Of a stretch of DNA of 64,000 nt, positions 8,791 through 62,858 are shown piece after piece. Below the pieces are notes generated by a model. The model had not been told where the DNA came from and ran no database searches. It saw only the letters and a list, made by a program, of their open reading frames with translations. Each line of letters starts with the position of its first letter. The first letter of the stretch is position 1. Position numbers and translations under genes: made by a program. The stretch is from Shigella phage SGF2, in the sequence record MN148435, one strand, 5' to 3'.

Positions 8791-9759
8791 ATGGGTGCAG
8801 GTGGTTTTCGTAAGAACACTGGTCGTAATAACACCACACTCCCGTACAACGTTGGGTTTCTCAATAATGTACAGGACACAGAAACATATAACGTAGCCGT
8901 ATATGACGAGCTACAGAAAGTCAGCACAGCTACTAACCAAATGTTCCAAGCTATTGATGAGATTCACGATGAGATTGATGTTCGTATCAAAGCTCTTCAC
9001 GCGATGAACTTACAATTTGATGAGCTTGAGAATAGGATTACTACAGAGATAGAGACAGCTATTGCAGATATTCAAACACAGATGGGGAATCTTTCCACTG
9101 AAGATATTTGGGATAATTCTGTTCAACCTCCTGTAAAATTAGAAAGCACTGTATCTGGCTTTAAAACAAGTATTGAGGGTAACACAACTAAGATTCAAAC
9201 GGTAGAAGGGATTGTTAATGACCAAGGTCAAGAGATTGCTTTAGTTCAAACAGAGATTCAAAATATTAATGGAAGCCTCTCTCAGTATATGAAGCTTTCT
9301 GAGTATGAAGCTACGTGGGGTGTTAACTCTACAGTCAACGGAAGGTATGCTGGGGTCAAGTTAACTAACAACGGAACAAATAGCCAATTCCAAGTAACAG
9401 CTAACAAGTTTATTGTTGGTGATGGAAGCTCTGGTAACACCCCTTTTGTATTTGAGGGCGGAAGGGCTAGGATGGAGTTCGCTGACATAAAGAACGTCAA
9501 CATCACAACAGCTCAAATTGCCAATGCTAGAATCCAATGGGCACAGATAGATAACGTATCTATTTCTAATGCTCAGATTCAGAATTTATCAGCGGATAAA
9601 ATCACTGCTGGTTCTATGTGGGGTTCTAACTGGAGACTTACTGTTGGTGGTGATTTTGTTATGGGTGGTACAGGTGGGGCACAGTTATGGATGAATGGAA
9701 ACAGAATAGACTTCTACGATGGAAGTGGTGCTCTAAGAATTAGAATAGGGAGTTGGTAA
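8791..9759 (+). CDS. tail fibre-like protein with N-terminal coiled coil
   Basis: ATG at 8791 preceded by GGAGG (the track ORF from 8725 spans the terminator); C-terminal repeat-rich fibre-like region (NVNITTAQIANARIQWAQIDNVSISNAQIQNL). Confidence 0.4.
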   Translation: MGAGGFRKNTGRNNTTLPYNVGFLNNVQDTETYNVAVYDELQKVSTATNQMFQAIDEIHDEIDVRIKALHAMNLQFDELENRITTEIETAIADIQTQMGNLSTEDIWDNSVQPPVKLESTVSGFKTSIEGNTTKIQTVEGIVNDQGQEIALVQTEIQNINGSLSQYMKLSEYEATWGVNSTVNGRYAGVKLTNNGTNSQFQVTANKFIVGDGSSGNTPFVFEGGRARMEFADIKNVNITTAQIANARIQWAQIDNVSISNAQIQNLSADKITAGSMWGSNWRLTVGGDFVMGGTGGAQLWMNGNRIDFYDGSGALRIRIGSW

Positions 9760-9760
9760 T

Positions 9761-10792
9761 ATGGCATATGGAATATGGACACAACCAGTAGGGCCGGGGC
9801 CAGCAACCCCCGCTCCCTTGTTTATTGATAGCGGAAGTACTTTCCCTCAGTTCAAGAACAGTATAAGAGGGAGCTTTAACTTTAATGGAGCTGGGAGATC
9901 TTTCCCTATTAGTGGATGGGATGGTAGTGGTCAGATAGTTATTGTTCCCACTGGTTCTCTGTGCTGGCAATGGGAAGTCCCTCCTAACTTAGTCCCTGAT
10001 GTTTATTGTGTAAATAACATCTATGTAGAAAATGCCTCATCTTTTAGGGTTACTCTGAACCAGAATCCCGGCGGCAATCCTTTATTTGACTGTGGATTCA
10101 ACGTCTACCAGATTTGGCCTAGAGCTGATAGAAACTATGGGATAACTTTCTCAAATACAGCAGACTACTTTTCCATATCAGATGCTGGGGTTGTTGGTCA
10201 ATGCATTTGGGCTTGGCAGGGGGTCATAAACAATGCCCTTCAGATACCAAATATCGGTGGGTTCAATATGACCAATGCTGTTGTATTTGCTAATTGGTCT
10301 GATGGAGGACTCGGGCTGTCTTATACCTCTGATGACAGAGTTATTCGTGTCTACCAGAACAGACCTTACGTAAACGGCAACACTAATGAGGGTGGTTCTG
10401 TGTTTGCTAGAATTGCAGTATTCTGCAATGGGGCAGGTGTTCCGGAACATAATGGAGGTTTAAATATCTACTCTCCGGGAACCACTCAATGTGTATTTTC
10501 TACTAACAGAACACCTTTCACTGTGGATACTTTTATAGGCTCAGGAGGTGGTAACACTGGAATGGCGTACCCTATGATACCTCTTACTTCTGGAATAGGT
10601 GCAATAAAAGGCCAAGGTAGTGGGTGGAGATACCAGCAAATGAGATCTCACACAATGAGTGGCTCTAGTATAGGAACTGGTTATGGAAGGTACTTATTTC
10701 AGTGGAATCAAAATTACGATCTAGGGGCTGACACTGTTGTTAACTTATCAGTTCCTGTAATAAACGCAGCTAAGGTTTTTGCTGGACTATAA
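9761..10792 (+). CDS. virion protein, function unknown
   Basis: 343-aa ORF tightly packed in late operon; Gly/Asn-rich. Confidence 0.35.
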   Translation: MAYGIWTQPVGPGPATPAPLFIDSGSTFPQFKNSIRGSFNFNGAGRSFPISGWDGSGQIVIVPTGSLCWQWEVPPNLVPDVYCVNNIYVENASSFRVTLNQNPGGNPLFDCGFNVYQIWPRADRNYGITFSNTADYFSISDAGVVGQCIWAWQGVINNALQIPNIGGFNMTNAVVFANWSDGGLGLSYTSDDRVIRVYQNRPYVNGNTNEGGSVFARIAVFCNGAGVPEHNGGLNIYSPGTTQCVFSTNRTPFTVDTFIGSGGGNTGMAYPMIPLTSGIGAIKGQGSGWRYQQMRSHTMSGSSIGTGYGRYLFQWNQNYDLGADTVVNLSVPVINAAKVFAGL

Positions 10793-23696: not shown

Positions 23697-23956
23697 TACT
23701 CTATTCCACGCTCTTTCAGAGCTTCTAACAATCCATTGTGATTAGCAGCACATTCTGTGTACTGATCCTGATACCACTCCAACGTAGTGGCTAGTGCCTT
23801 TCCTTGAGCACTCTCTAAAAGAGGTAGGTCAACCCTACATTCAGCTTTTAGGTTTGTTGGTAAGGGCATTGATTGCCTGCTGTTGTCGCTCGTTGAACAA
23901 GCTGACATACTCATCACTAGCGCAGACATTATAAAAAACTGGTTTAGTTTTCTCAT
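23696..23956 (-). CDS. o-spanin (Rz1-like outer-membrane lipoprotein)
   Basis: start MRKLNQFF...; lipobox-like MSAC then Pro-rich periplasmic part; embedded out of frame in 3' end of i-spanin gene. Confidence 0.6.
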
Positions 23957-24191
23957 AATGCATCTCTTTATAAACGGTTTCCGTGTTCTTCTTCCAGCTA
24001 GATAAACCGGTAAGAACTCTCTGGGCAACTTCATCAGCTGCCTTGCTTCTTTCAATCTCTAACTCTTGCTGGTGCTTCTCTTTGTCCAGATTACTACTGT
24101 CTGTTTGATATTCGTTAAACTTCATACCACCAAAGAATACAAGAGCCGAGAAAATGATAAACCCTAAGTTATCACTTAACGTGTTTTGCAT
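23841..24191 (-). CDS. i-spanin (Rz-like)
   Basis: start MQNTLSDN after GGAGA RBS; N-terminal TMD LGFIIFSALVFFGG; coiled-coil periplasmic domain; overlaps o-spanin. Confidence 0.6.
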   Translation of the reverse strand: MQNTLSDNLGFIIFSALVFFGGMKFNEYQTDSSNLDKEKHQQELEIERSKAADEVAQRVLTGLSSWKKNTETVYKEMHYEKTKPVFYNVCASDEYVSLFNERQQQAINALTNKPKS

Positions 24192-43374: not shown

Positions 43375-43376
43375 TG

Positions 43377-43601
43377 TTAGATACCTTTAAGTTTAAGAAT
43401 TTCGTTACGAGTTTTTTGAATCTGAGCTTCAATTTCGAAGTAGTCGTTGAACGCATCGTTCTCTACTTCATCGGATGGTGCATCAATCAGACCGAAAGCG
43501 AACGGATACAGCTTTCGCTGCTCCGTTACTAATTCGATATGAACTCCTATGTAATACTGTAGGAGAGTGATCTTCGGTTTCTTAGGAACCAGATTTGACA
43601 T
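43377..43601 (-). CDS. hypothetical protein
   Basis: 74-aa ORF between ATP-grasp and amidotransferase genes. Confidence 0.3.
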   Translation of the reverse strand: MSNLVPKKPKITLLQYYIGVHIELVTEQRKLYPFAFGLIDAPSDEVENDAFNDYFEIEAQIQKTRNEILKLKGI

Positions 43602-43815
43602 GAGGTTCTACCTTAATGCCTTTGATTTTTACATAATCAGCAAGCACGTTGTTGATCACCGTTGGGAAAGGAACCTCAACCTGTGTCTCAAGTACTTGAC
43701 CAATACCAGCTTGCATCCACTTCTGGATTGCACGAAGGTTATCACATCCTGTGCTCGTCATCGGGATACGTCGAGTAGTTACAACGTTATCCAGCATCAT
43801 CTTACGAATTTCCAT
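43582..43815 (-). CDS. hypothetical protein
   Basis: 77-aa ORF. Confidence 0.3.
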   Translation of the reverse strand: MEIRKMMLDNVVTTRRIPMTSTGCDNLRAIQKWMQAGIGQVLETQVEVPFPTVINNVLADYVKIKGIKVEPHVKSGS

Positions 43816-43817
43816 AC

Positions 43818-45848
43818 TTAACCTCTATTCAATGAACATTTAGGAGAATTACAATAAACTTGATTCATAGAACCAAGCGTACAACTTTCAGCATCGCGCC
43901 ACGGAATCTGCTTAAAACACTCTGAGCAGTAGCCGAGGGTTGACCACATGGCTTTGGTGAAGTCAGTGCTTCGGTTTCCGTCGAAGCTGACAACAGTTTT
44001 GCGGAGAGCTGTTCGTGATTCAGGAAACACACCTGCTTTCTCAGCAGGTTCCTCCTTTTTTGGCTTAGTTGAGATTGCAAAAATACTGTTGCTACGTTTC
44101 TCAACATAAGCATCAACAACATCCTCCAGAGTGATGCCTGTCTGTTTCGCTGAGGAAGGTAATACAGTCATACGACCAATCATATCTTCAGTTACACGTA
44201 AAGCAAATTCAGGACGACGGGCGTTTGTTGTATCTGTTGCTTTAATCCAGACATAACCATCTTTGATCGTAGCATTAGATACTTTCTTCTTTACATCTAC
44301 AGCGCAGACTTTACAGATATCTTCACCACGAAGACGACTAAGTTCATCATCGAACTCGTTCTCTGTTTTAACTTCACCGCAGATTTCACAAACACCAATA
44401 GGAGTTTCCTCCTCTTCTTCATCTTTAGGTTTAGTCAAACCTTCCAGACATTCAGGGTGCCAGTAGCACTGATATGCGAAGACTGCTTTAGGTGCATCCT
44501 TCCAATCAATGTGTTTGTCACAACCACCGCAATCACCATGAGAGTGTGCTTCCCAGAATTTACGAGTGATAGTAACGCCATTCTTATTGACGAAACTATC
44601 ATTCATGTCAAAAGGGATATCATCATCGAAGTCAGCGGTAGTAGACTCAGGCTCCTTTTTCTCCAGAGATGGGTCAACAAAACGACCTGCTGTGATCACT
44701 AAACGAACCATAGCATTAACTTCGGAGATGCAGGATACTGTCCCACGGTAAACAATTTTAGGGTCTTTCAGGGCATCCTGATAAGCCTTAATGTCTACGT
44801 TATGAACATCACCTTCGATATACTCTTGAGACTTCTCATCGTAGATATAACCAATCATCTTACCACGAGAAGGAACAGCACCAGCTGTTGCATAAGGAAC
44901 AAACTCATGTGGTGTGATTTCCACAGTCATATCGCGGCGAATGTCAATGTTTCGATCGCTTGCGATTTTGTTTTGACTTACCACTGCGTTTCTTCGACGA
45001 ACGTCTGCCGCTGTCACTCCCGGCTTCGTGTCGTAAGGATTGCTTGTACTGCTTTTTGAGGAACTTTGATAATTGCTTTGGCTGTAGTTGTTCGAGTAGT
45101 AATTGCCCCAACGATTGATTACCGTAAAAACCGGAAGCTCGTGGGCGACCTCTTCAACTAGAGTCATACTGTTGTTTGACATGTCAAAGATATACTCTGT
45201 ACCAACTTTACATTCAAAGTGCTCATCAATACGGTTCTTGTGAGACTTAGAACGCTTCAGAATCCACATCAACATGTCTTCTTCAGAAGCACCAAACCAA
45301 TCTCTGTTACAACGTGCGAGATGGAATGGACGCTCTTCGTTACGGATGATATGAAGACGGTTGTCAGAAGCATCATGCCAGATTAAGGTGAAAGCACCAT
45401 CCAGCTTTTGAATAGTCTCTGCTGCACCAATAGTGTTAATAGAGTGGCAGATGTTCTCACTGTCTACCTCGAAGTTTTTGCTGTCAGGTAACAGATCTTG
45501 GTCCATCAAGGTTCCGTTATGAACCAGAGTGATGTTACCATGTTGGAAAGGATGGGCGTTCTTGGCGTTAACTGCACCTTTCGTTGCATGACGGCTATGA
45601 CCAACAATCCATGAAGGTGCTACAGTGTAAGCTGTTTCACCAGTGGTGTGCTTCTTGTACTCATCTTGAAGGATGAATGCGAAAGAAGGAAGGGCTTCTT
45701 TATAGGTGAAGACTTCCTTAGTGCTCTTACGCTGACCAAAGATACCAGAGGAATGTTGTCCTCGGAACACTCCAGCATAAAAGAGTTGGTTGAATACGTC
45801 TAAATCAGTGCTTGACAGATTACCGCCAGCTAATACGATGCCACAAAT
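43818..45848 (-). CDS. class-II (Ntn) glutamine amidotransferase-like protein with C-terminal Cys-rich Zn-ribbon region
   Basis: reading frame extends upstream of track start to I-CGIVLAGGNLSS... (Ntn Cys nucleophile pattern); AGGTGG RBS; no in-frame ATG after a TAG, so ATT start or readthrough implied; C-terminal CxxC clusters. Confidence 0.55.
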   Translation of the reverse strand: MCGIVLAGGNLSSTDLDVFNQLFYAGVFRGQHSSGIFGQRKSTKEVFTYKEALPSFAFILQDEYKKHTTGETAYTVAPSWIVGHSRHATKGAVNAKNAHPFQHGNITLVHNGTLMDQDLLPDSKNFEVDSENICHSINTIGAAETIQKLDGAFTLIWHDASDNRLHIIRNEERPFHLARCNRDWFGASEEDMLMWILKRSKSHKNRIDEHFECKVGTEYIFDMSNNSMTLVEEVAHELPVFTVINRWGNYYSNNYSQSNYQSSSKSSTSNPYDTKPGVTAADVRRRNAVVSQNKIASDRNIDIRRDMTVEITPHEFVPYATAGAVPSRGKMIGYIYDEKSQEYIEGDVHNVDIKAYQDALKDPKIVYRGTVSCISEVNAMVRLVITAGRFVDPSLEKKEPESTTADFDDDIPFDMNDSFVNKNGVTITRKFWEAHSHGDCGGCDKHIDWKDAPKAVFAYQCYWHPECLEGLTKPKDEEEEETPIGVCEICGEVKTENEFDDELSRLRGEDICKVCAVDVKKKVSNATIKDGYVWIKATDTTNARRPEFALRVTEDMIGRMTVLPSSAKQTGITLEDVVDAYVEKRSNSIFAISTKPKKEEPAEKAGVFPESRTALRKTVVSFDGNRSTDFTKAMWSTLGYCSECFKQIPWRDAESCTLGSMNQVYCNSPKCSLNRG

Positions 45849-45927
45849 TTTCTAATCCACCTGAAGGGTAAACCCTTTCATCTAATTAACCTTTAAATTG
45901 TGCCCCTTTATCAGAGGCACCCATTGA

Positions 45928-47031
45928 TTACAGCGCTTGCTCTAACTGATTTTCCAGATGATCTGGAATGTACCCTGTGATATTGCTATCACTGTGACCT
46001 GACTCACGCAGTAAGTCAAAAATAGCACGGATACGTTGCTCTGGTGCAGATCGTACAGTAGATAGATCAGTTGTACGAAGCATAACCAGAATCTCTTGGT
46101 ACAAGTTGTTAGCGTTCCCTCGGACATATCCAAGGAATCCGTAGAAGTCTGAGATATGACGTAGATCAACAAGAACTTCTCCGTTGGAGTTGGTTCGACG
46201 TAAACGAATACGACCAGACTGTTCTACTTCATGAGAACGACAATACAAAACATCACGGGCCATACAATAACCTGAATGCAAATCCGATTCATCCAGATTG
46301 TAATCCAGAGGAAGGTAAGGAAGCATTGGGGCAAATCGTACAGTATTTAAATGCTCAATAAACTGATCATTGCTCATCTCTGCGTTATCTAAAGCCAGCT
46401 TCTTCAACATCAAGAAGCGGTTAACCAGATTGAGAAGTTGACCACGTTTCCACTTAGGCTCACTGATACGGAACTCGATCGAACCGTATTGGGCAAGTGG
46501 CAGAAGATTCAGGGATGTATACTTATCCCATGAACGAACCAGACGGTTGAAGAATTCTTCATCGTCGTAGTTAAATGCGTCAGAGGCATTCATTACCTGT
46601 GCTTGTACCACTGCGAAAGCAGGGCAGAAGTTGCTACGGTAACGATGATAGCCTGAACACTTGAACAACATCTTTTCATAGAAGGTCCAAGCGAGAATGG
46701 TTTTCTTGAGGATATTACTATCAGCATCCCTCATATCCATATGAACGTGAGTAGAGCAACGCCAAGTCCCCTCGGCGTGCGATTCAGCTACTGCTTCACT
46801 CAGGTTGTTGATAGCGTCTAACAACTCCTGTCCGTTGTAAGGTCGTGAACATACCATTTCACAGCCATTACGCAGGGAACCATCCTCTGTACAATCCCAC
46901 ATATCTGCTTCGATATGGTCGGAGCCTTCGAGTTCTAGTTCGATACCGACACCGCACTGAAGTGCAATTGAACTATGCGCCTCAGTTAAACGACCTTCTC
47001 GATATCCAAAAGTTTGCGCTACAGTTGTCAT
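45928..47031 (-). CDS. glutamine-synthetase-like amidoligase (carboxylate-amine ligase fold)
   Basis: VGIELELEG...EDGSLRNGCEMV...GTWRCSTHVHMD resembles GS-like amidoligase motifs. Confidence 0.5.
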   Translation of the reverse strand: MTTVAQTFGYREGRLTEAHSSIALQCGVGIELELEGSDHIEADMWDCTEDGSLRNGCEMVCSRPYNGQELLDAINNLSEAVAESHAEGTWRCSTHVHMDMRDADSNILKKTILAWTFYEKMLFKCSGYHRYRSNFCPAFAVVQAQVMNASDAFNYDDEEFFNRLVRSWDKYTSLNLLPLAQYGSIEFRISEPKWKRGQLLNLVNRFLMLKKLALDNAEMSNDQFIEHLNTVRFAPMLPYLPLDYNLDESDLHSGYCMARDVLYCRSHEVEQSGRIRLRRTNSNGEVLVDLRHISDFYGFLGYVRGNANNLYQEILVMLRTTDLSTVRSAPEQRIRAIFDLLRESGHSDSNITGYIPDHLENQLEQAL

Positions 47032-47645
47032 AACGAATCCACCAACGTAATATTATAATTGCTAAGGTTTTCAGAAATGTGATGAAAGTGTTCCAGAAGT
47101 CGCATCGGTTGCTGACCATAAGAGTCACGAGGCGCTTCCAGATCTACTTGCCCTACCAGTGCACCTTTATAATGCACCTTACCATCCGTAGGGTTGATGT
47201 AAATATAACGAGTGACCAATCCATCAAACTCTGGATTGAATAGACTGTAAACCATCTCCCCAGAGATAGAACGACCAATCCCAGGAGCATTTCGAATCTT
47301 GTTACCCATCAAACCCTTTGCTCTCTGACGAACAGGGTTAATGTGAGTCCAGCTTACAGTGTTACCGTTATGGAACAGATAACCAACATCAGGTGATTCA
47401 AGAATCAAGGTTGGGTCGAACACTGGAATATTCATCGTAGTGTTTCGAAGGTGCCCTTGCTCATTCTTGTACCACTGCTCTACAACAAAATACAGAGCCT
47501 GTTCTGCTTCGTGAGAGAAGTCATCGCTGCGGAAGTTACCGCTCTGCTCGACACCAATCACAAAACATGGAAGGTTGATATTACCTGCTCGTTTAGCAAT
47601 CCATGTACCATTATAGTAATGAGAAAAATCAGCTACTAAGCTCAC
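47028..47645 (-). CDS. hypothetical protein
   Basis: 205-aa ORF, translationally coupled to neighbours. Confidence 0.35.
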   Translation of the reverse strand: MSLVADFSHYYNGTWIAKRAGNINLPCFVIGVEQSGNFRSDDFSHEAEQALYFVVEQWYKNEQGHLRNTTMNIPVFDPTLILESPDVGYLFHNGNTVSWTHINPVRQRAKGLMGNKIRNAPGIGRSISGEMVYSLFNPEFDGLVTRYIYINPTDGKVHYKGALVGQVDLEAPRDSYGQQPMRLLEHFHHISENLSNYNITLVDSL

Positions 47646-47654
47646 GATAACCTC

Positions 47655-48461
47655 TTATGCTACCTGAAGGAGTTTGATCTGCTGGTCCGCTTCTTTAACG
47701 TTGTTGCCGTTAATGATTTCATGAAGCTTCTCAATCGGAAGGCGAGAGTGTAATGCCATCAGAGTGGACATATCACACTGCTGAACAACTTTGTCAACCT
47801 GATCGTAAACAAACTTACGGTTTTCACGATCGCTAATCCAGAAGTTAGACAGTGAACGGTATTCGATACCATAGTCTTTATAACGGATTGCAGACGCTTT
47901 ACCGTAGAGTTCTTTACGGCGAGTATCTTTATCCATAATAACTGCTGGGAGGGACAGGAAGTAGTCACACAGCACACCCAACATCATCTGAGTTTGCAGG
48001 GTGATATCCAAAGCACCAACTACGCCGAGATGTACGTGACCACCGGCAGTACGAAGCCCTTTATTCTGAGAAGTCGGGGATGGATTCTTCTGACCAGTGA
48101 AAGCGTTGAAATCAGGAGTACATCCGAAGATGAACGCTGATTCATTGAAAGTCTTCATCTCTTCTTCAGTGAAGATGTGAGAGCTAACACCCGGAGCTGT
48201 TTCCATGTCCAGTTTGTTCAGGACATTGTTGGTGAGATCGATACCACGTTGCATGTTATCGTTAAACGCTTCAAAGCCGCTCTGTGGGTCAATATCAAAC
48301 TCAGCCAGTACGTTGTCCTCTTGAAGACGAACATCCTTAGCCAGAGTGATCTTATCGTCCTTAGAACAACCTAACAGACCAGCTACAGAGGTGATAATAC
48401 CATTGCTGGTACGAACAAACATTTCAGGGTCAGAGCCGATAAGGAATTTGCGCTTAGTCAT
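47655..48461 (-). CDS. hypothetical protein, possibly second divergent GS-like ligase
   Basis: N-terminal FLIGSDPEMFV loosely resembles GxExE strand of amidoligases; weak. Confidence 0.3.
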   Translation of the reverse strand: MTKRKFLIGSDPEMFVRTSNGIITSVAGLLGCSKDDKITLAKDVRLQEDNVLAEFDIDPQSGFEAFNDNMQRGIDLTNNVLNKLDMETAPGVSSHIFTEEEMKTFNESAFIFGCTPDFNAFTGQKNPSPTSQNKGLRTAGGHVHLGVVGALDITLQTQMMLGVLCDYFLSLPAVIMDKDTRRKELYGKASAIRYKDYGIEYRSLSNFWISDRENRKFVYDQVDKVVQQCDMSTLMALHSRLPIEKLHEIINGNNVKEADQQIKLLQVA

Positions 48462-49425
48462 TGTAATACTCCACTAGTTCAGAAAAGAGAGATGAGATTG
48501 TGTTACCAACTTCTTCAGTAGTAAGGCCAGAGCTTGGACCAGTACGCTGAATTAGTCGGGCTGTAAAGTTTTGTACTGTAATGTTTCCCAACTTGTCGTC
48601 TATTGATTCACGTTTGTGACCATAACAGTTGGACCAGAGTCTTAACCACTCTGACATTGTTTCATACTCGTCCGGGTCTTGATCTTTAGCACGAGCAAAT
48701 CTTCGTAAGGCATCTTGGTTATGGTTACGAACATAACCGTCCTTGTTGTCACCAACACCGAAGGGGTTTTGCACCCATACTTGTTTCGTGTATTCATCAG
48801 AGTCTACAACCAAAGGAAGGAATGCTGCTGCTGACATATTGTTATTAACAACAATAGAGGTGCTCTCGCTACTCCCATTGGCTCTTCCTCGTTGAGACCA
48901 TCCACCGAAGAAGTCACGACCCAACCCAGCTAACACTAGAGCGATGCCGATGCGCTTACGCTTCAGCCACTCTTCCCTGTCTTCAATTCCTTCTGCTAGG
49001 AAATCCATTCCACGATACTGCCCTTCCAGAATGCTACGGAAGAGCATAAGTCCTGTGAAGATTTGATCTGCTGGATGCTCACGGAGGTTGACAGCAACAC
49101 TATTCGCTGAAGTGATCGTAAATATACCACGATAGCAAGACATAGAGTTCATAATGTCTGCTGTTTCAACCAAGTTCTTTTCAATGTCAGATGCAGCGAG
49201 ACCATGAAAAGAGTGAGTCCAGTAATTCAACATCTCCAATTGCAAGTTAATGTCACGGTTGAAGCGTTTATGACGCCCTTCTTCCATGACACATTCGTCA
49301 TTAACATCATATACGACTTGACCTTGCATGTAGTTGTGAATACCGAAGCACCCACGACCTAAGAACTTCTGTTCCCCTAAATCCTGTTGAAGATTAAGAG
49401 GTACGATCGTTGTGGAGATTGCCAT
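48454..49425 (-). CDS. hypothetical protein
   Basis: 323-aa ORF. Confidence 0.35.
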   Translation of the reverse strand: MAISTTIVPLNLQQDLGEQKFLGRGCFGIHNYMQGQVVYDVNDECVMEEGRHKRFNRDINLQLEMLNYWTHSFHGLAASDIEKNLVETADIMNSMSCYRGIFTITSANSVAVNLREHPADQIFTGLMLFRSILEGQYRGMDFLAEGIEDREEWLKRKRIGIALVLAGLGRDFFGGWSQRGRANGSSESTSIVVNNNMSAAAFLPLVVDSDEYTKQVWVQNPFGVGDNKDGYVRNHNQDALRRFARAKDQDPDEYETMSEWLRLWSNCYGHKRESIDDKLGNITVQNFTARLIQRTGPSSGLTTEEVGNTISSLFSELVEYYND

Positions 49426-49435
49426 AACTAACCTT

Positions 49436-50632
49436 TTATTTTCCTAAAAATAATCCGCTCATAATACCATCCCATTCAGAGGATGGAAACACCGAATACT
49501 CTGAACTTTGGTCCAGAGTTCCGCTACTGAATCGCTGAACAATATTATAAATATTGAACATATCTTTAGTCTCAGCGCGATAAGCGTAGACTAATCTGTC
49601 AGCTGTTCTTTCATCTTTAGATACCCGACGAGCAAAGGTAACCAGAAGGTTGTCACCTTTGAGTATTTCTGACTCATCTTTTACTAGATCAGGGTGCATA
49701 ACCGGCAAGAACATCGAGTTATTAACTCGTAATTCTGCTGTTTCATCATTCTCATAATGAATCCACTTAAAGTCTTCATCACGGAAGTGACCGCATCCAT
49801 CTCTGTACGACTGCTGACGCCAAGGCACTTTAAACGCTTCAGTATACTTATCAGCCATACCAACTGTAAATAGCGACGCTGGGAAGATACAAGCATCCCA
49901 ATCATTACCGACCAGAGTTGCTTTCGTTTCACCCAAGAGGTTAGTGTAAGTGCTAACCATTCGTGAGTAAACGTAAGCCTGAAGAATTGTCCAGCCTTCA
50001 ACCAACCATTTATGAAGGAAGGTTTCAACTTGACTCTCTTCATCTTCACAATAGAAGGTTCGATCTAACATCAAATAGAACAGACAACGATCAGCAGGAA
50101 CATTCTCAGTTGCTACCCCCATAAAACCTTTCTCGTGCCAGCGTAAACAGGAGGGACGATCTTTGTCCACAAATGCTTCCATAGCTTCCAGTACAGCACG
50201 AGGTGTGGTTTGATGTTCAGGATTTTTATTATTCCAACGATCAATGTTATTCTTAGGAGGTGTGTCTTCATCTTCATACGAACACCAACTTAAAGCTTCA
50301 GCTACGTGCTTTTCATCACGCCAGCGTCTAAAACCTAACATCTTCATGTGAGTTCCGGAGTTCCAGATATGCTTGATTTTACACATATCCATCTCTCGGC
50401 TTAACAGGAACTCTTCCCCATCAGCACTACGAACGTTAGCTTCTTCATGCCACACTCGAACGTGCATATTCCACCCATGAGTTGCCTCATACATGTTAGG
50501 GTCGAAGTATTCATCTTCGTCATCGTCTTCATCAACGCCACCGTTATAGTTGCGAAGCTGAAGGAACCCATAACAAGGAGGGTTGACCGTTAAAACATTA
50601 CCTTCAGTATCTTCTAATGTTACTGGAAACAT
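49436..50632 (-). CDS. hypothetical protein
   Basis: 398-aa ORF, Trp/acidic-rich. Confidence 0.35.
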   Translation of the reverse strand: MFPVTLEDTEGNVLTVNPPCYGFLQLRNYNGGVDEDDDEDEYFDPNMYEATHGWNMHVRVWHEEANVRSADGEEFLLSREMDMCKIKHIWNSGTHMKMLGFRRWRDEKHVAEALSWCSYEDEDTPPKNNIDRWNNKNPEHQTTPRAVLEAMEAFVDKDRPSCLRWHEKGFMGVATENVPADRCLFYLMLDRTFYCEDEESQVETFLHKWLVEGWTILQAYVYSRMVSTYTNLLGETKATLVGNDWDACIFPASLFTVGMADKYTEAFKVPWRQQSYRDGCGHFRDEDFKWIHYENDETAELRVNNSMFLPVMHPDLVKDESEILKGDNLLVTFARRVSKDERTADRLVYAYRAETKDMFNIYNIVQRFSSGTLDQSSEYSVFPSSEWDGIMSGLFLGK

Positions 50633-52855: not shown

Positions 52856-53167
52856 CTATTTAAGTTTGAGGCTAATGTTAAGGTGCATACATGCCCTGTT
52901 CTGTACAGCAGCATAACTTCTACCGAGCATGTCAGCCATTCTCTGAATAGACATGAACCCAGCATTACGGATAAGGAACTGATCTTCTTCTTTAGACCAC
53001 TTAACTCGGATTACAGCTCTAGAGATACCGAACTTAGTGCAAGCTGTATTAACTGCATTCTCCGTTACATTCATAATCTGAGCAACCTCTTGAACCGAGT
53101 ACTCTTTGATTAGTCTCCGAAGATTTTCAATCTGCATCGGAGTCCATATAGTTCTTCGTGCTTTCAT
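52856..53167 (-). CDS. DNA-binding protein with two tandem HTH (SANT/Myb-like) repeats
   Basis: internal repeats WTPMQIENLRRLIKEYSVQEVAQIMNVTENAV / WSKEEDQFLIRNAGFMSIQRMADMLGRSYAAV. Confidence 0.4.
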   Translation of the reverse strand: MKARRTIWTPMQIENLRRLIKEYSVQEVAQIMNVTENAVNTACTKFGISRAVIRVKWSKEEDQFLIRNAGFMSIQRMADMLGRSYAAVQNRACMHLNISLKLK

Positions 53168-53474
53168 ACATCCTCCAATTAAACATTTATATAAGACTTG
53201 CTTAGATAAAGATTCAATAAAATAGGGGGAGGGGACGAATCCTCCCTTATCCTATTAGTTAATATTGCATGTAAGATCTAACAATCGGTTGCCTTTGTAG
53301 GAATAAGCGTAAAGCCAATCCAGCACTAAACTCCCGCCCCCCTTAGTGGGCTGGGTTATTAAAGGGTAACGCCCTTATGGGCTAGTTACGTGAATGTTAG
53401 TTTGATAGGAGATCTGAAGTCCTATCTCAAAGGACTCTCGTAAGAATCCTTCACGATATTACTTATCCAGCTCC

Positions 53475-53904: not shown

Positions 53905-54204
53905 TCACCACTCTTTACCGGTTGTAATCGTAGAGCCACCACACCACAACGCTGTATCAATCACAACATTGTCTGGCGTAGACTTCTCTTCGTTGATAGA
54001 AGGGTTAGCATTAGAGCAGGTTGCTCCGTTCCAGCGCATATCAATCTCACCAGAAGGAACCTTCTCACCTTTATGCCAGCGAGATACACAAATACCATCC
54101 ACTGCTACTGCACACCATCCATCAGGACGGCTCTGTACGCAGCCTGTAAGGGCCACACAGACAAGGAAGATACAGATTAAGGATATTACACCACCCCAAC
54201 TCAT
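53905..54204 (-). CDS. Cys-rich lipoprotein (superinfection-exclusion candidate)
   Basis: signal peptide MSWGGVISLICIFLVCVALTGC with lipobox LTGC; 8 further Cys. Confidence 0.5.
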   Translation of the reverse strand: MSWGGVISLICIFLVCVALTGCVQSRPDGWCAVAVDGICVSRWHKGEKVPSGEIDMRWNGATCSNANPSINEEKSTPDNVVIDTALWCGGSTITTGKEW

Positions 54205-54223
54205 AACTATCTCCTATTAGATT

Positions 54224-54299
54224 TGGTGCACCCTACAGGACTCGAACCTGTAACCAACGACTTAGAAGGTCGCTGCTCTGTCCATTGAGCTAAGGGTGC
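54224..54299 (-). tRNA. tRNA-Arg (anticodon UCU), CCA encoded
   Basis: minus-strand GCACCCTTAGCTCAATGGACAGAGCAGCGACCTTCTAAGTCGTTGGTTACAGGTTCGAGTCCTGTAGGGTGCACCA folds as cloverleaf: 7-bp acceptor, D-arm GCTC/GAGC, anticodon loop CTTCTAA, T-loop TTCGAGT. Confidence 0.85.
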
Positions 54300-54308
54300 T
54301 AGATTTGT

Positions 54309-54518
54309 TTAACTAAAGATACGAATGGCTACATCGTGACCGATATGACCGGGAACTTTATGCTGTTCTATTTTCAAACAGTGTTTACAGATACGAGATA
54401 CACGAGATTCTTTTCTCTCGACCGGAGTGTCTTTAGCGTGGGTGATATGTAGGTTCTCAGTGATCACCCACTCGTGTTTACATCCAGAATCTTCGGGCTT
54501 TTTCTTACGAAAGAACAT
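54309..54518 (-). CDS. small zinc-finger protein, paralogue 1 of 3
   Basis: start MFFRKKKPEDSGCKHEW...RICKHCL. Confidence 0.4.
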   Translation of the reverse strand: MFFRKKKPEDSGCKHEWVITENLHITHAKDTPVERKESRVSRICKHCLKIEQHKVPGHIGHDVAIRIFS

Positions 54519-54526
54519 AACACCCC

Positions 54527-54691
54527 TTAGATCAGATCTGTTTTCTTGTGCAGACCACACACTTTACAGCGAGAGTAGATACGCAACCCTTGTCGCTCTC
54601 TGTCAGTAAGTTTATTTGTGATCGTCAGTTCATAAGTATGAAGATCTTCCCACTCATGGAAATGAAAGAAGCGTTTGAACCATTTGATCAT
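54527..54691 (-). CDS. small zinc-finger protein, paralogue 2 of 3 (54 aa)
   Basis: ORF below cut-off MIKWFKRFFHFHEW...RCKVCG. Confidence 0.4.
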   Translation of the reverse strand: MIKWFKRFFHFHEWEDLHTYELTITNKLTDRERQGLRIYSRCKVCGLHKKTDLI

Positions 54692-54700
54692 AATGATTCC

Positions 54701-54862
54701 TTAGATTACATCACGATGACTAACATCACCACACACCTTACACTGAATAACGTAACGTGTGCCCTTGTCATTATTCCCATCTGAATCTGTATAGACCAGA
54801 GGGCGAGTATTAATAATCTTCCAATCATGACAATGAAAGACACGCTTTAGCCACTTGAACAT
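54701..54862 (-). CDS. small zinc-finger protein, paralogue 3 of 3
   Basis: start MFKWLKRVFHCHDW...QCKVCGD (internal Met of track ORF). Confidence 0.4.
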   Translation of the reverse strand: MFKWLKRVFHCHDWKIINTRPLVYTDSDGNNDKGTRYVIQCKVCGDVSHRDVI

Positions 54863-54869
54863 ATTAACC

Positions 54870-55121
54870 TCAAGCACAAGCAGGGAGAGTGATGATTTTA
54901 TACTGACCTTCAAACTCTCCAAACAAACCCAAGAATGTAGGACTGTAAGTACCAGTACAAACAAACTCATCAAACAATTCGTTATAGCTAGGCTTGATCT
55001 TCCAAGCCCATACATAACCCATTTTGTCAATTGCAATGTAACGAGAGTTCAGAGGAACAGTCATCATCACATCATCAACTTCAATCACTTTAGTGATTGG
55101 TGCAGCTTGGAAGTTTTTCAT
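54870..55121 (-). CDS. hypothetical protein
   Basis: 83-aa ORF. Confidence 0.3.
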   Translation of the reverse strand: MKNFQAAPITKVIEVDDVMMTVPLNSRYIAIDKMGYVWAWKIKPSYNELFDEFVCTGTYSPTFLGLFGEFEGQYKIITLPACA

Positions 55122-55694: not shown

Positions 55695-55718
55695 AAAGGC
55701 CACCCGAAGGCAGCCTTT
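55695..55718 (-). terminator. hairpin terminator (possibly bidirectional)
   Basis: AAAGGC..CCCGAAGG..GCCTTT hairpin flanked by T-rich tracts on both strands. Confidence 0.35.
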
Positions 55719-61079: not shown

Positions 61080-62858
61080 CTTTCAATTGTAAGGGCACTA
61101 TGCCCCGCTCTCTATGAGCTTGTTTAAGTCACTATTAACTTATCTCTAACCACTCACTTTTTTAAGTAGTTACAGGTAAGCGAGGCGGTCTTATCAGGAG
61201 TTAACCTTGCCGCCTCCTTATCCGTGATGTTTCATCTGGTATCTTTAATTAGTCGCTATAAACGAAGCCGACCTGATAGCGATGATCAATCATCACAATA
61301 AGGCAGTGCGTCCGACTCTAATTAGTTACGTTTATTGTAACCGTCGGCAATATCGTCTACTTTGCTTTCGCTCTCGCCTATCCTTTTGTATCAACTCTCA
61401 ATCACTAGCCATCGCCCACAACGGGATGCTATTGTGAAAGAGTCATTGACCGTCTAATGTTCTGACGTTTTATATCTTTCGGCAAGTTTACTACATAAAC
61501 CGACTATGTACTTTCATCTTGTGATGAATCTCAAGCCGTTCACATCGTAAACGTTCACACTAAACCTTATTGTTAAATAGCAATTTGCCACTTTTTAACC
61601 GCTCCCCGCCGCCCTCAATTGGGCGTTAATTTGTCGGACTTGCCTACCCTGATTAACTTCTTTCACTGTAGCACCATGTTAGCGATGACCGCCGCTACCC
61701 TTAACCGTGGGCGATTAGCTTAAGTCTTTGCGTGTACTCAATGAATCCGTCTATCAGTGGTGACGTTTCCAGTAAGGGAATGTAAGGCTGTTTTCTCTGA
61801 TAGTTTAGAGAGTCTTACACCGTTTTATCTGGTATGCTTTCCGATGGTTATTATCATCAAGCATATTCAACCGATATAGGAGAACGTTTAAATTATTAAA
61901 GAGCGGTAAATCTATCAGTGTACTTTCTCACACTATGCAACTGTTAGCCGTTGTTACGCTTTTCACTGAAGCGATGATTTGCTTAGTGAGTGCTCATTAT
62001 GAATCATGTTGTTTTCGCTGTCAACCGCTTTTTAATCTTTTTCGTCGTTCCCGCTATTGGGAGGATATATCAATCAGCTTTATTTGATTGAAGATTAAGC
62101 GGTGAGGCTTAACTTATGACTCATATTGTTAAAGAGCGTTTAGCCTTTTAAAGTGTCTGCTAATCACTGTCACATTGAAGGCTTACTGATTCATTAACAG
62201 GACGCCTAACCCTGAACTACTCGCCGCACTATGTGCCACCTTTCCCGCGATACGTTGACTTGGGAACTAGTTAACGTTGTTTTGTTAACTTGTGGTTAGT
62301 ATGGACTACCTTAACCACGTTTGCAACTCTTTTTTATCATCTTCTTTTAATTCCTTTCCCTTATCTCGCTTGAATCTTTGCGAAAGGGCAAGATGATAAG
62401 TTTTTAAAGAGCGGAGATATTTTAAGTCATCGCTGACTATGCTCACTATATATCAGGCTTTTTCTGGTGTCAATACTCTTTTTAAGTATTTTCACTTTCT
62501 AGCCTGATTTTTAAAGAGCGGGGCAAGTTTCCTTGCCTTGTATGTTTTTCATCGTACCCGATGAATTGAAGTATACGCCAACCAATGTGTAATGCAATAG
62601 GGTAAAGCAAATTATTTTAAACTTTTTCATAGTGGGATAGGTAAAAGAACGCGCACGCGTGATACATCATAGAAAATAGCTTGTAAAGCATTATTTAACG
62701 GCCTGTAACGCATCACAACGAGCTAAAGGAGGGTAAGGAATACAATCACCTTAGAAATGAGAAAAGCCTCACTAGGAGGCTTACAGGAAGGATTTAAAGC
62801 AACAGATACAGTAGGACCATAGGCATGACTACGGCACAATATAGGAGAAAGATTAAGC
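61080..62858. promoter_or_regulatory. 1.8-kb ORF-free repeat-bearing region (candidate early promoter cluster / origin / terminal region)
   Basis: no ORF of 60 aa or more in six frames; four copies of TTAAAGAGCG at 61896, 62129, 62404, 62511; duplicated TTT(C/T)ATCTGGTAT(C/G)CTTT at ~61226 and ~61820; CACTATA-like elements. Confidence 0.4.
62753..62782 (-). terminator. rho-independent terminator (minus strand)
   Basis: minus-strand AAGCCTCC-TAGT-GAGGCTT then TTTCTCATTTC, after 62859-63230. Confidence 0.45.

What the first reader, a model, noticed from the sequence alone, without database searches (positions are those of the whole stretch)
53905..54299. Cys-rich lipoprotein gene immediately upstream of tRNA-Arg(UCU)
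The 99-aa ORF has a lipoprotein signal peptide and lipobox (VALTGC) followed by a Cys-rich mature domain. Small phage lipoproteins of this kind are classically superinfection-exclusion or receptor-masking factors. The adjacent tRNA reads rare AGA codons. Both are typical accessory cargo embedded in the small-gene array.
Basis: partly seen in the sequence, partly recalled or inferred. Interest (0 to 1): 0.45.

Follow-up and report, generated by a model that had tools for sequence, protein, structure and literature searches.

The report
Phage lipoprotein that likely blocks LptD
This small gene of a phiEco32-like (Kuravirus) E. coli phage encodes an outer-membrane lipoprotein related to Rtp45, a protein shown to clamp the essential LPS exporter LptD from the inside so that phages cannot dock on it, which hints that these O-antigen-dependent phages also deal with LptD; the adjacent tRNA is an ordinary, already published codon-usage helper.

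Summary
A 99-aa ORF lies at 53905-54204 on the minus strand, with a signal peptide, the lipobox LTGC (Cys22) and a good ribosome-binding site. A tRNA-Arg(UCU) lies 19 nt away at 54224-54299. On the coding strand the tRNA is upstream of the ORF, not downstream.

The window is a Kuravirus (phiEco32-like podophage). The protein is a full-length member of Pfam PF24052. It is a clear homologue of Rtp45, the superinfection-exclusion lipoprotein solved bound to the periplasmic face of LptDE (PDB 9RPS). The Rtp45 disulfide, hairpin core and C-terminal KEW motif are conserved. Kuravirus copies add a hypervariable loop flanked by two cysteines.

The same window also encodes a homologue of the LptD-binding receptor-binding proteins Rtp44 and RBP-Oekolampad, at 9761-10792. 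It sits directly after the J-like tail-needle gene. Its predicted fold matches only 9RPT chain C.

No paper in the searchable library links Kuravirus to LptD. The orthologous SU10 gp19 was not detected in virions by two mass-spectrometry studies.

The tRNA/AGA story is already published, and both genes are conserved across the genus.

The parts
53905..54204 (-). Lipoprotein gene (99 aa including signal peptide; stop TGA at 53905-53907). Rtp45-family (Pfam PF24052) putative LptDE-binding superinfection-exclusion lipoprotein, orthologue of phiEco32 gene 106.
   Evidence: ORF list. Pfam PF24052 E = 3.4e-34, 117 bits against a cut-off of 27. PDB 9rps_D (Rtp45) E = 1.2e-13. Foldseek hits only 9rps_D, prob 1.0, TMt 0.74. 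100% identical to the KBNP1711 protein and 74% to phiEco32 gp106, which is annotated 'putative phage lipoprotein'.
54142..54204 (-). Signal peptide, aa 1-21 (MSWGGVISLICIFLVCVALTG). The n-region has no Lys or Arg and the h-region is long.
   Evidence: Sequence. The feature is identical in all Kuravirus copies, whereas siphophage relatives start MTNLIK or MKK.
54139..54150 (-). Lipobox L-T-G-C (aa 19-22). Cys22 is the predicted acylated first residue of the mature protein.
   Evidence: Rule-based scan. Cys22 is invariant across the whole family.
54025..54138 (-). Conserved Rtp45-like core, aa 23-60: the RPDGWC motif, C31 and C39 (equivalent to the Rtp45 Cys30-Cys38 disulfide), and the VPSGEID-R-G strand.
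   Evidence: Alignments A1 and A6. The Rtp45 structure is described in PMC12685063. Core identity is 47/50 to phiEco32-type proteins and 26-29/50 to siphophage proteins.
53941..54024 (-). Hypervariable inserted loop, aa 61-88, bracketed by C63 and C88. I infer these form a second disulfide and that the loop sits at the tip of the C-terminal beta-hairpin.
   Evidence: The loop is 12-37 aa and always carries 2 Cys in Kuravirus copies. It is 4-9 aa without Cys in Rtp45-like siphophage copies. Loop dN is 0.68-0.87 against core dN of 0.05-0.155. In the AF2 model the flanking strands are 52-64 and 87-98, with low pLDDT between them.
53908..53940 (-). Conserved C-terminal strand, aa 89-99 (GGSTITTGKEW), equivalent to the Rtp45 C-terminus GSVRDYGSKEWN.
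   Evidence: Alignment A1: G90, E98 and W99 are invariant among 17 sequences.
54211..54215 (-). Shine-Dalgarno AGGAG, 6 nt before the ATG, inside the 19-nt spacer after the tRNA.
   Evidence: Sequence.
54224..54299 (-). tRNA-Arg(UCU), argU-like, with encoded CCA, directly 5' of the lipoprotein gene on the same strand.
   Evidence: ARAGORN. Rfam 71.9 bits. About 84% identical to E. coli argU, with paired changes in the stems. Same position in phiEco32, EcoN5 and Bas88.
9761..10792 (+). gp19-like protein (343 aa, Pfam DUF6453), homologue of the LptD-binding receptor-binding proteins Rtp44 and RBP-Oekolampad. Candidate cognate partner of the lipoprotein, about 43 kb away.
   Evidence: tblastn with Rtp44 E = 1.3e-9 over 307 aa. 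PDB 9rpt_C E = 2.1e-9. Pfam PF20051 E = 6e-23 over the full length, and Rtp44 itself scores 1e-113. AF2 model pLDDT 84.7, and the only significant PDB fold hit is 9rpt_C: E = 8.7e-13, TMt 0.81. 96.8% identical to SU10 gp19.
8791..9759 (+). Tail-needle protein (SU10 gp18 orthologue, 322 aa) with a lambda-J-like tail-tip fibre domain. It is encoded immediately before the DUF6453 gene, as J is in siphophages.
   Evidence: Pfam PF09327 Phage_Tail_Tip E = 3.6e-27. blastp to the C-terminal parts of T1 J (E = 7e-8) and Rtp43 (E = 1e-5). SU10 assignment from PMC9509320. Same gene order in divergent metagenomic relatives.

Best explanation
The ORF encodes an outer-membrane lipoprotein of the Rtp45 family, made from the host-sigma70-transcribed early gene block of a Kuravirus.

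Proposed pathway. The protein is exported by Sec, acylated at Cys22, cleaved by signal peptidase II, and sorted by Lol to the inner leaflet of the outer membrane. There it docks on the periplasmic rim of the LPS translocon LptDE. By analogy with Rtp45, a strand just after the first disulfide pairs with the base of an LptD barrel strand. A long beta-hairpin rises through the LptD lumen and pushes extracellular loop 4 outwards. That holds LptD in a shape that LptD-dependent phage receptor-binding proteins cannot enter.

Expected result. Superinfection exclusion, and protection of progeny from being wasted on debris.

Kuravirus-specific feature. The hairpin tip carries a hypervariable loop flanked by two cysteines, which would reach further into the lumen.

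What is shown and what is inferred. Shown here: gene, lipobox, family membership, conservation of the disulfide, hairpin and C-terminus, purifying selection, and co-occurrence with a DUF6453 RBP homologue. Shown by others for Rtp45 only: LptDE binding and loop-4 displacement. Inferred: processing, LptDE binding by this protein, the position of the loop at the hairpin tip, early timing, and who is excluded.

Who is excluded. I rate exclusion of the phage's own kind through its gp19-like protein at about 0.4-0.45. Exclusion of competing LptD-dependent siphophages would follow either way.
For: - Family: Pfam PF24052 E = 3.4e-34 over the full length, and Rtp45 is in the same family at 1e-37.
- Direct homology to the solved Rtp45 chain 9rps_D: E = 1.2e-13, about 40% identity over residues 6-66. 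It is the only PDB fold hit of the AF2 model.
- The whole mature Rtp45 chain is represented. C22, G29, W30, C31, C39, G46, G52, D55, R57, G60, G90, E98 and W99 are invariant in A1. C31 and C39 match the Rtp45 Cys30-Cys38 disulfide described in PMC12685063.
- The core has dN/dS 0.15-0.22.
- The family is tiny, about 16 clusters at 50% identity among 1.84 billion representatives. It is confined to enterobacterial phages that also carry DUF6453 RBP homologues: Rtp, Dhillonvirus, Rogunavirus, Webervirus and Kuravirus.
- T1, which uses FhuA, has neither protein.
- The window itself encodes a DUF6453 protein whose only fold match is the LptDE-bound RBP 9rpt_C. It lies directly after a J-like tail-needle gene.
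- For both proteins the nearest non-Kuravirus relatives are in Klebsiella Webervirus, where the two genes are also unlinked.
- Location: the gene lies in the block homologous to the phiEco32 early genes. There is no phage-sigma promoter consensus within 50-64 kb, and there are two 11/12 sigma70-like promoters upstream at about 62.0 and 62.5 kb.
- Precedent for a podophage using O-antigen plus LptD: Pseudomonas phage DEV.
Against: - No experiment exists for any Kuravirus lipoprotein.
- Kuraviruses are described as O-antigen dependent, with the terminal receptor unassigned and thought to be cell-surface or LPS-related. Resistant mutants lose O-antigen.
- The 28-aa insertion sits in the part that, if my placement is right, contacts the LptD lumen and loop 4. 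It could change or abolish that interaction.
- SU10 gp19 was not detected in virions, either by gel-band MS or by shotgun Orbitrap MS that found gp16-18 and gp20-24. Its paucity of Lys/Arg (16 in 343 aa, mostly long tryptic peptides) only partly excuses this.
- Lipoprotein alleles and gp19 alleles assort independently among six Kuravirus genomes, Spearman about -0.26 computed by hand.
- The two genes are about 43 kb apart, unlike the adjacent rtp45-rtp44 pair.
- The signal peptide lacks a basic n-region.
- The lipoprotein AF2 model has modest confidence, pLDDT 72.
- The authors of 9RPS report that AF3 mispredicts these complexes.
Confidence: 0.68

Rival explanations
1. It is an Rtp45-fold lipoprotein that has been retargeted. 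The inserted hypervariable loop lets it bind a different outer-membrane protein or envelope component, so it has nothing to do with LptD in Kuravirus.
For: The 12-37-aa loop flanked by two cysteines is absent from Rtp45 and other LptD-associated siphophage copies and evolves very fast. Kuravirus has no documented LptD dependence.
Against: All core positions, including the strand after the first disulfide that pairs with LptD in 9RPS, are conserved. The genome also keeps a homologue of the LptD-binding RBP. The family is otherwise found only with DUF6453 RBP homologues.
Confidence: 0.14
2. It binds LptDE, but its purpose is host takeover rather than exclusion. By holding LptD closed it would stop insertion of new LPS and O-antigen, or weaken the outer membrane, during infection.
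For: Rtp45 binds the closed state and blocks the loop-4 movement seen in the open state that is thought to be needed for LPS insertion. The gene sits among early genes thought to serve host takeover. The phage's primary receptor is O-antigen, the cargo of LptD.
Against: Rtp45 could be co-overexpressed with LptDE to good yield, so it is not acutely toxic. Existing surface O-antigen would not disappear within one lytic cycle (inference). Exclusion is the demonstrated role of the only studied member.
Confidence: 0.1
3. It is the outer-membrane spanin (Rz1-type lysis lipoprotein) of the phage.
For: It is a small phage lipoprotein with cysteines.
Against: The phage's real overlapped spanin pair is elsewhere in the window: i-spanin at 23844-24191 (-) and o-spanin at 23699-23956 (-). 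These are 94-98% identical to the pairs catalogued by Kongari et al. 2018. The neighbours here are a tRNA and a 66-aa protein without a membrane segment. The gene lies in the early block, not with lysis genes, and is homologous to Rtp45.
Confidence: 0.01
4. It is a chance ORF or a mis-called signal peptide, so the protein is not made or not lipidated.
For: The n-region has no positive charge. No SignalP or LipoP run was possible.
Against: Pfam E = 3.4e-34. Core dN/dS is 0.15-0.22. The SD is at optimal distance. Cys22 is invariant in every family member. Established work on Lpp signal peptides shows that a long hydrophobic core can compensate for a missing basic n-region (my knowledge, not tested here).
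Confidence: 0.02

Closest known systems
Rtp45 of coliphage Rtp (PDB 9RPS chain D; Dunbar & van den Berg, PNAS 2025, PMC12685063). Superinfection-exclusion lipoprotein bound to LptDE-LptM.
   Same: Same Pfam family, PF24052. About 40% identity over the core. Shared features: lipobox Cys, the RPDGWC...C disulfide, the VP-GE-D-R-G hairpin strand and the C-terminal G-KEW. The genome also carries a DUF6453 RBP homologue.
   Different: A 28-aa hypervariable loop flanked by two cysteines is inserted where Rtp45 has 4 residues. The signal peptide has no basic residue. The gene sits in the early small-gene block of a podophage, after a tRNA and about 43 kb from the RBP homologue, rather than directly upstream of the RBP gene next to J. 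No functional data exist.
Lipoproteins of Klebsiella Webervirus (Drexlerviridae), for example vB_KpnS_ZX2 QTH79929 and Domnhall
   Same: These are the closest non-Kuravirus relatives: 37-46% identity, and the same TTG-KEW end without the extra Ser. Here too the lipoprotein gene is unlinked, about 10 kb from the DUF6453 gene that follows J.
   Different: Short loop without cysteines, canonical MK signal peptide, siphophage background. Function and receptor untested.
Llp of phage T5 (FhuA-binding superinfection-exclusion lipoprotein; van den Berg 2022, PMC9586334)
   Same: The same kind of job. It is a small, early-expressed outer-membrane lipoprotein that binds the periplasmic face of the phage's receptor and changes its extracellular loops.
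   Different: No detectable sequence or fold relation: no Llp chain appeared in the PDB searches at E <= 10. Llp acts by long-range allostery on a TonB-dependent transporter, whereas Rtp45 acts by direct steric displacement.
Cor of T1, phi80 and N15 (FhuA-directed exclusion lipoprotein)
   Same: A small phage lipoprotein encoded beside the host-recognition genes of T1-like phages, used for exclusion.
   Different: Only a marginal profile score, E = 0.015, probably signal-peptide similarity. Different receptor.
Pseudomonas podophage DEV: O-antigen as primary and LptD as secondary receptor (mBio 2026, PMC12892993)
   Same: A precedent for the receptor logic proposed here: a short-tailed phage that needs O-antigen and then engages the O-antigen/LPS exporter LptD.
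   Different: Different phage family (Schitoviridae) and a different receptor-binding fibre (gp54-56). No Rtp45-like lipoprotein is described. Relatedness was not tested here.
Phage-encoded tRNA-Arg(UCU) of Kuravirus-like phages (YF01 study, PMC9965538)
   Same: Same tRNA, same anticodon and same codon-usage rationale. AGA is 20.2% of Arg codons in YF01 and 19.7% here.
   Different: Nothing of note. This part of the finding is already published.

Membership tests
Rtp45-type superinfection-exclusion lipoproteins (Pfam PF24052 'Phage_lipoprotein') | Sequence matches the family profile above the curated threshold over the full length | tested here: met
   117.1 bits against a cut-off of 27, E = 3.4e-34, profile positions 1-80 of 80. 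Rtp45 scores 128 bits.
Rtp45-type superinfection-exclusion lipoproteins (Pfam PF24052 'Phage_lipoprotein') | Signal peptidase II signal with a lipobox Cys as first mature residue, and no Asp at +2 (outer-membrane sorting) | tested here: met
   LTG-C22 follows a 15-aa hydrophobic stretch, and +2 is Val. The Cys is invariant in the family. This is a rule-based test only. The n-region lacks Lys/Arg.
Rtp45-type superinfection-exclusion lipoproteins (Pfam PF24052 'Phage_lipoprotein') | Conserved intramolecular disulfide (Rtp45 Cys30-Cys38) and the beta-hairpin core | tested here: met
   C31 and C39 align to Cys30 and Cys38 and are invariant. The AF2 model hits only 9rps_D, TMt 0.74.
Rtp45-type superinfection-exclusion lipoproteins (Pfam PF24052 'Phage_lipoprotein') | Co-occurrence with an LptD-type (DUF6453) receptor-binding protein gene in the same genome | tested here: met
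   DUF6453 gene at 9761-10792. Thirteen phage records appear in both 60-row samples of hits. T1 lacks both.
Rtp45-type superinfection-exclusion lipoproteins (Pfam PF24052 'Phage_lipoprotein') | Gene adjacent to and co-transcribed with the RBP gene downstream of J, as in the typical small-siphophage RBP locus | tested here: not met
   The genes are about 43 kb apart, on opposite strands and in different temporal blocks. Adjacency is also absent in Webervirus, so it is typical rather than defining.
Rtp45-type superinfection-exclusion lipoproteins (Pfam PF24052 'Phage_lipoprotein') | Physical binding to the periplasmic face of LptDE with displacement of extracellular loop 4 | not testable with these tools
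   Known only for Rtp45. The authors report that AF3 complex predictions are wrong for this system.
Rtp45-type superinfection-exclusion lipoproteins (Pfam PF24052 'Phage_lipoprotein') | Expression confers resistance to phages that use the cognate receptor | not testable with these tools
   Requires plating and adsorption assays.
T5 Llp family | Sequence or fold homology to Llp | tested here: not met
   No Llp chain among the PDB sequence hits at E <= 10 or the Foldseek hits.
Cor family (T1/phi80/N15) | Sequence homology to Cor | tested here: not met
   The family profile against T1 Cor gives E = 0.015, 12.6 bits. No Cor family appears in the Pfam output.
Two-component spanin, outer-membrane subunit (Rz1-like) | Lipoprotein gene embedded in, overlapping or adjacent to an i-spanin gene | tested here: not met
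   The neighbours are a tRNA and a soluble 66-aa ORF. The real spanin pair is at 23699-24191 (-).
LptD-binding receptor-binding proteins (Pfam DUF6453; Rtp44, RBP-Oekolampad), tested for the partner gene at 9761-10792 | Profile match and the fold of the solved LptDE-bound RBP | tested here: met
   PF20051 E = 6e-23. 9rpt_C by sequence E = 2.1e-9 and by fold E = 8.7e-13, TMt 0.81, the only significant hit.
LptD-binding receptor-binding proteins (Pfam DUF6453; Rtp44, RBP-Oekolampad), tested for the partner gene at 9761-10792 | Presence in the virion at the distal end of a J-like fibre | tested here: inconclusive
   The gene follows the J-like tail-needle gene. However, SU10 gp19 is listed as not found in two published MS data sets. 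It yields few tryptic peptides of detectable size.

The most novel reading that the evidence does not exclude
Kuraviruses, known only as O-antigen-dependent podophages, may use the essential LPS exporter LptD as their hidden terminal receptor. In this reading the unassigned gp19 (DUF6453) sits at the tip of the J-like tail needle and enters LptD. The early lipoprotein is its cognate exclusion factor. Its hypervariable cysteine-flanked loop projects up the LptD lumen and is a second front of the phage-phage arms race inside an essential transporter. This would extend the 'glycan plus its exporter' receptor logic (N4: NGR and NfrA; DEV: O-antigen and LptD) to a third podophage lineage. It would also show that the J-tip/RBP/exclusion-lipoprotein module moves between siphophages and podophages.
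Probability: 0.38. Interest if true: 0.7.

Novelty: new member of a known kind. Interest (0 to 1): 0.45.

Why it matters
The gene and the tRNA are not new. phiEco32 gene 106 has been annotated 'putative phage lipoprotein' since 2008. The protein is in a Pfam family, and the tRNA/AGA link is published. What the follow-up adds is a named target and a testable hypothesis.

Every component of the LptD-targeting host-recognition module of small siphophages is present in Kuravirus: a J-like tip fibre, a DUF6453 receptor-binding protein and an Rtp45-type exclusion lipoprotein. Members of this genus (SU10, ES17, BASEL Bas86-93) are studied structurally and explored for therapy, and their terminal receptor is unassigned.

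LptD is essential, so knockout collections cannot reveal it, and selection for resistance yields O-antigen loss instead. That could explain why it has been missed.

If confirmed, three things follow:
- The lipoprotein could be used to block LptD-dependent phages.
- The variable loop becomes a natural probe of the LptD lumen, which is a drug target.
- Cocktail design with Kuraviruses and LptD-dependent siphophages would have to allow for cross-exclusion.

Tried and rejected
(1) Spanin hypothesis. Rejected, because the true overlapped spanin pair lies at 23699-24191 (-). My two rule-based lipobox scans missed that o-spanin (lipobox MSAC). 'Only lipoprotein in the window' is therefore wrong and the scans are not exhaustive.

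(2) T5 Llp and Cor membership. No homology.

(3) NCBIfam. No family. PHROG 4281 has no annotated function.

(4) Matched alleles of lipoprotein and gp19 across Kuraviruses. None found. KBNP1711 has a 100% identical lipoprotein but a 63% gp19, phiEco32 has 74% and 96%, and Bas88 has 58% and 88%. Six genomes only.

(5) Whether the tail needle resembles specifically the J proteins of LptD-type phages. It does not. T1 J (FhuA type) scores better than Rtp43, so the similarity is generic J-tip.

(6) Virion presence of gp19. Two published SU10 data sets do not list it, which leaves the receptor hypothesis open.

(7) Primary phiEco32 papers (Savalia 2008, Pavlova 2012). They are not held. 'Early gene' rests on secondary description, promoter scans and synteny.

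(8) The low-scoring armadillo-repeat PDB hits to residues 64-98 have no significant individual domains. I treat them as composition noise.

(9) A full co-occurrence matrix of the two families could not be built, because only 60 rows per search are listed.
Full report
**What is there.**
The coordinates are exact. On the minus strand an ATG at 54204 opens a 99-codon ORF that ends at 53905. AGGAG lies 6 nt upstream of the ATG, and an in-frame stop lies three codons further up, so there is no other start. The product begins MSWGGVISLICIFLVCVALTG-C22: an uncharged n-region, a 15-residue hydrophobic core and the lipobox L-T-G-C, with Val at +2. The mature 78-residue chain has five cysteines, at positions 22, 31, 39, 63 and 88.

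Nineteen nucleotides 5' of the ATG, on the same strand, ends a tRNA-Arg(UCU) at 54224-54299. ARAGORN calls it and Rfam scores it at 71.9 bits. The CCA end is encoded, and the tRNA is about 84% identical to E. coli argU. The next ORF starts one nucleotide after the TGA, so packing is operon-like.

**Where the window comes from.**
The region is 92-96% identical to Kuravirus (Gordonclarkvirinae) phages such as EcoN5, NJ01, MN05, O18-011 and Bas91. In phiEco32 the orthologue is gene 106, annotated 'putative phage lipoprotein' and placed directly after the tRNA-Arg. The same order is found in EcoN5. In Bas88 one extra 46-codon ORF lies between them. tblastn finds the protein in 382 phage records. 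About 85-95 of these are Kuravirus-like, which is roughly every record of the group. The pair is therefore a conserved feature of the genus, not sporadic cargo.

**What the protein is.**
It matches Pfam PF24052 'Phage_lipoprotein' end to end (E = 3.4e-34). NCBIfam has nothing, and PHROG 4281 has no annotated function. A search of PDB sequences gives one real hit: 9rps chain D, E = 1.2e-13, about 40% identity over residues 6-66. That entry is Rtp45, the superinfection-exclusion lipoprotein of phage Rtp, solved in complex with Shigella LptDE and LptM (PMC12685063).

According to that paper, Rtp45 has these properties:
- It binds the periplasmic side of LptD near strands 5-8.
- It is wedged between LptE and LptM.
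- Its residues 30-35 pair with LptD residues 318-323.
- It has a Cys30-Cys38 disulfide.
- It sends a long hairpin up the LptD lumen, which displaces extracellular loop 4 by up to 20 Å, so the phage receptor-binding protein can no longer bind.

In my alignment the whole mature Rtp45 chain has a counterpart in the window protein. C22, G29, W30, C31, C39, G46, G52, D55, R57, G60, G90, E98 and W99 are invariant in 17 sequences. C22, G29, C31, C39 and G60 are invariant across all 16 clusters found in 1.84 billion representative proteins. An AF2 model (pLDDT 72) hits only 9rps_D in the PDB (prob 1.0, TMt 0.74). The core is under purifying selection, with dN/dS 0.15-0.22.

**What is different in Kuravirus.**
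Between G60 and G89, where Rtp45-like siphophage proteins have 4-9 residues and no cysteine, Kuravirus proteins have 12-37 residues that always start and end with a cysteine. In the window these are C63 and C88. This loop is hypervariable. It shares 8 of 22 residues with phiEco32-type proteins, against 47 of 50 for the core, and loop dN is 0.68-0.87 against 0.05-0.155 for the core.

In the model the loop sits between the two long strands 52-64 and 87-98. That would place it at the tip of the C-terminal hairpin. I infer that this is the hairpin which rises through the LptD lumen in 9RPS, but I could not inspect coordinates, so the placement is unproven. The paired presence and absence of the two cysteines suggests a second disulfide.

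**The unexpected partner.**
Because Rtp45 is encoded next to the receptor-binding protein Rtp44, I searched the window with Rtp44. It hits the ORF at 9761-10792 (+) over 307 residues (E = 1.3e-9). The evidence for that 343-aa protein is as follows:
- Pfam DUF6453, E = 6e-23 over the full length. Rtp44 itself scores 1e-113.
- It matches the solved LptDE-bound RBP of phage Oekolampad, 9rpt chain C, by sequence (E = 2.1e-9).
- Its AF2 model (pLDDT 84.7, pTM 0.86) has that chain as its only significant PDB fold match (E = 8.7e-13, TMt 0.81).
- It is the orthologue of SU10 gp19 (96.8% identity).

The gene immediately before it (8791-9759) is the SU10 gp18 tail needle. It carries the lambda-J tail-tip domain (PF09327, E = 3.6e-27) and aligns with the C-terminal fibre part of the J proteins of T1 and Rtp. 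The order nozzle, needle, DUF6453, transglycosylase is kept in metagenomic relatives only 45% identical.

In small siphophages the RBP is thought to hang on the end of J. Alleles of this locus predict the receptor 'without exception', and the Rtp44 type means LptD. As a control, T1 (FhuA) has neither family, while Rtp and the Klebsiella Webervirus ZX2 have both. In ZX2 the two genes are also about 10 kb apart. Webervirus holds the nearest non-Kuravirus relatives of both proteins. That is what co-inheritance of a functional pair would give.

**How it most likely works.**
The gene lies in the block homologous to the phiEco32 early genes, which run opposite to the late genes and are read by host RNA polymerase. 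Two 11/12 sigma70-like promoters lie upstream on the same strand at about 62.0 and 62.5 kb. None of the four matches to the phage-sigma consensus TAATGTATA lies within 50-64 kb.

I therefore propose early synthesis, followed by Sec export, acylation and Lol sorting to the outer membrane. The protein would then dock under LptDE as Rtp45 does and lock loop 4, so that LptD-dependent RBPs are kept out. That would exclude the very common LptD-dependent siphophages. If gp19 is the Kuravirus terminal RBP, it would also exclude the phage's own kind and spare progeny from adsorbing to debris.

A podophage that uses O-antigen first and LptD second has just been described in Pseudomonas (DEV). The BASEL authors note that Kuraviruses depend completely on O-antigen and that the receptor of the later step is not established.

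**What speaks against the stronger reading.**
- SU10 gp19 is listed as not structural and not found after MS of gel bands.
- It is also absent from a shotgun Orbitrap list that contains gp16-18, gp20-24 and even traces of terminase and DNA polymerase.
- The protein has only 16 Lys/Arg and gives mostly 25-69-residue tryptic peptides. That lowers detectability but does not explain the absence fully.
- Lipoprotein and gp19 alleles are reshuffled among Kuraviruses. This is compatible with the two proteins acting on opposite faces of the receptor, but it gives no positive support.
- No paper in the searchable library connects Kuravirus, Gordonclarkvirinae, phiEco32 or SU10 with LptD.

My estimates are about 0.68 that the lipoprotein is an LptDE-directed exclusion factor, and about 0.38 that LptD is the receptor of the phage itself.

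**The tRNA.**
AGA makes up 19.7% of Arg codons (10.8 per 1000) in a greedy ORF set of the window. In annotated genes of a 50-kb E. coli K-12 stretch it is 3.7% (2.35 per 1000). The enrichment is similar on both strands, and the lipoprotein gene uses no AGA. The same analysis is already published for the Kuravirus-like phage YF01, where AGA is 20.2%. This part of the finding is correct and ordinary. The only link between the tRNA and the lipoprotein is physical: tRNA processing would cut the transcript just before the lipoprotein's ribosome-binding site (inference).

**Rivals.**
- The o-spanin idea is excluded. The window's real overlapped spanin pair is at 23699-24191 (-).
- Llp and Cor are functional analogues, not relatives.
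- Retargeting to another envelope protein by means of the new loop cannot be excluded without experiments.
- A role in shutting down LPS export, rather than exclusion, also cannot be excluded without experiments.

**Verdict.**
The gene is a member of a known, structurally characterised family, in a lineage where it has not been studied, and it carries a distinctive variable loop. Interest is moderate. Its main value is the testable suggestion that Kuraviruses engage LptD.

Noticed in passing
window 9761-10792 (+) and 8791-9759 (+): SU10-gp19-like DUF6453 protein, homologous in sequence and predicted fold to the LptD-binding RBPs Rtp44 and RBP-Oekolampad. It is encoded right after the J-like tail-needle gene and is unassigned in the SU10 virion structure papers. 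It is very variable among Kuraviruses (46-99% identity) compared with other structural proteins.
   Followed up: yes
window 54309-54870 (-), directly 5' of the tRNA: Three consecutive small genes (69, 54 and 53 aa from their likely starts) are paralogues. They share an M-F/I-K-W-x-K-R...H-x-W...C-K-x-C-G pattern, a possible zinc-ribbon. PHROGs 13426 and 8294 list the two that were searched as unknown function.
   Followed up: partly
window 23699-24191 (-): Overlapped two-component spanin pair: i-spanin at 23844-24191 and o-spanin at 23699-23956, with lipobox MSAC. It lies far from the lysin gene at 4413-4904. My lipobox scans missed it.
   Followed up: partly
window 54142-54204 (-): The signal peptide of all Kuravirus copies lacks any Lys or Arg (MSWGGV...) and contains two cysteines in its hydrophobic core. 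Related lipoproteins in other phages start with the canonical MK(K). The consequence for export is unknown.
   Followed up: no
window 54224-54299 (-); L002 11128-11201; L008 224-300: The phage tRNA-Arg(UCU) is about 84% identical to host argU. The differences are paired in the acceptor and T stems. The phiEco32 copy has a different anticodon stem that still pairs.
   Followed up: partly
window about 61996-62473 (-), 55695-55718 (-), 53227-53246 (-): Two near-consensus sigma70-type promoters (11/12) lie on the early strand. Terminator-like hairpins bracket a 2.4-kb segment that contains the small genes, the tRNA and the lipoprotein gene. Terminator-like sites are about twice as frequent as in shuffles, 20 against 9.1.
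   Followed up: no
window 15330 (+), 25055 (-), 25127 (+), 31757 (-): Four exact matches to the phiEco32 phage-sigma promoter consensus TAATGTATA, against 0.8 expected. All lie outside the early block.
   Followed up: no
window 52856-53167 (-): The D5-like helix-turn-helix regulator (103 aa, two HTH/Myb-like repeats) has one of the highest AGA densities in the window, 5 in 103 codons.
   Followed up: no
window about 42172-50632 (-): A cluster homologous to phiEco32 genes 83-88: glutamine amidotransferase, amidoligase, COOH-NH2 ligase and ATP-grasp-like enzymes. It is almost devoid of AGA codons, unlike the rest of the genome.
   Followed up: no
L005 (Klebsiella phage ZX2) 11995-12222 and 1440-2396: In Webervirus the Rtp45-family lipoprotein sits between a helicase-associated ORF and the Dam methylase, about 10 kb from the DUF6453 gene that follows J. 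This suggests LptD may also be the unreported secondary receptor of these Klebsiella phages.
   Followed up: partly
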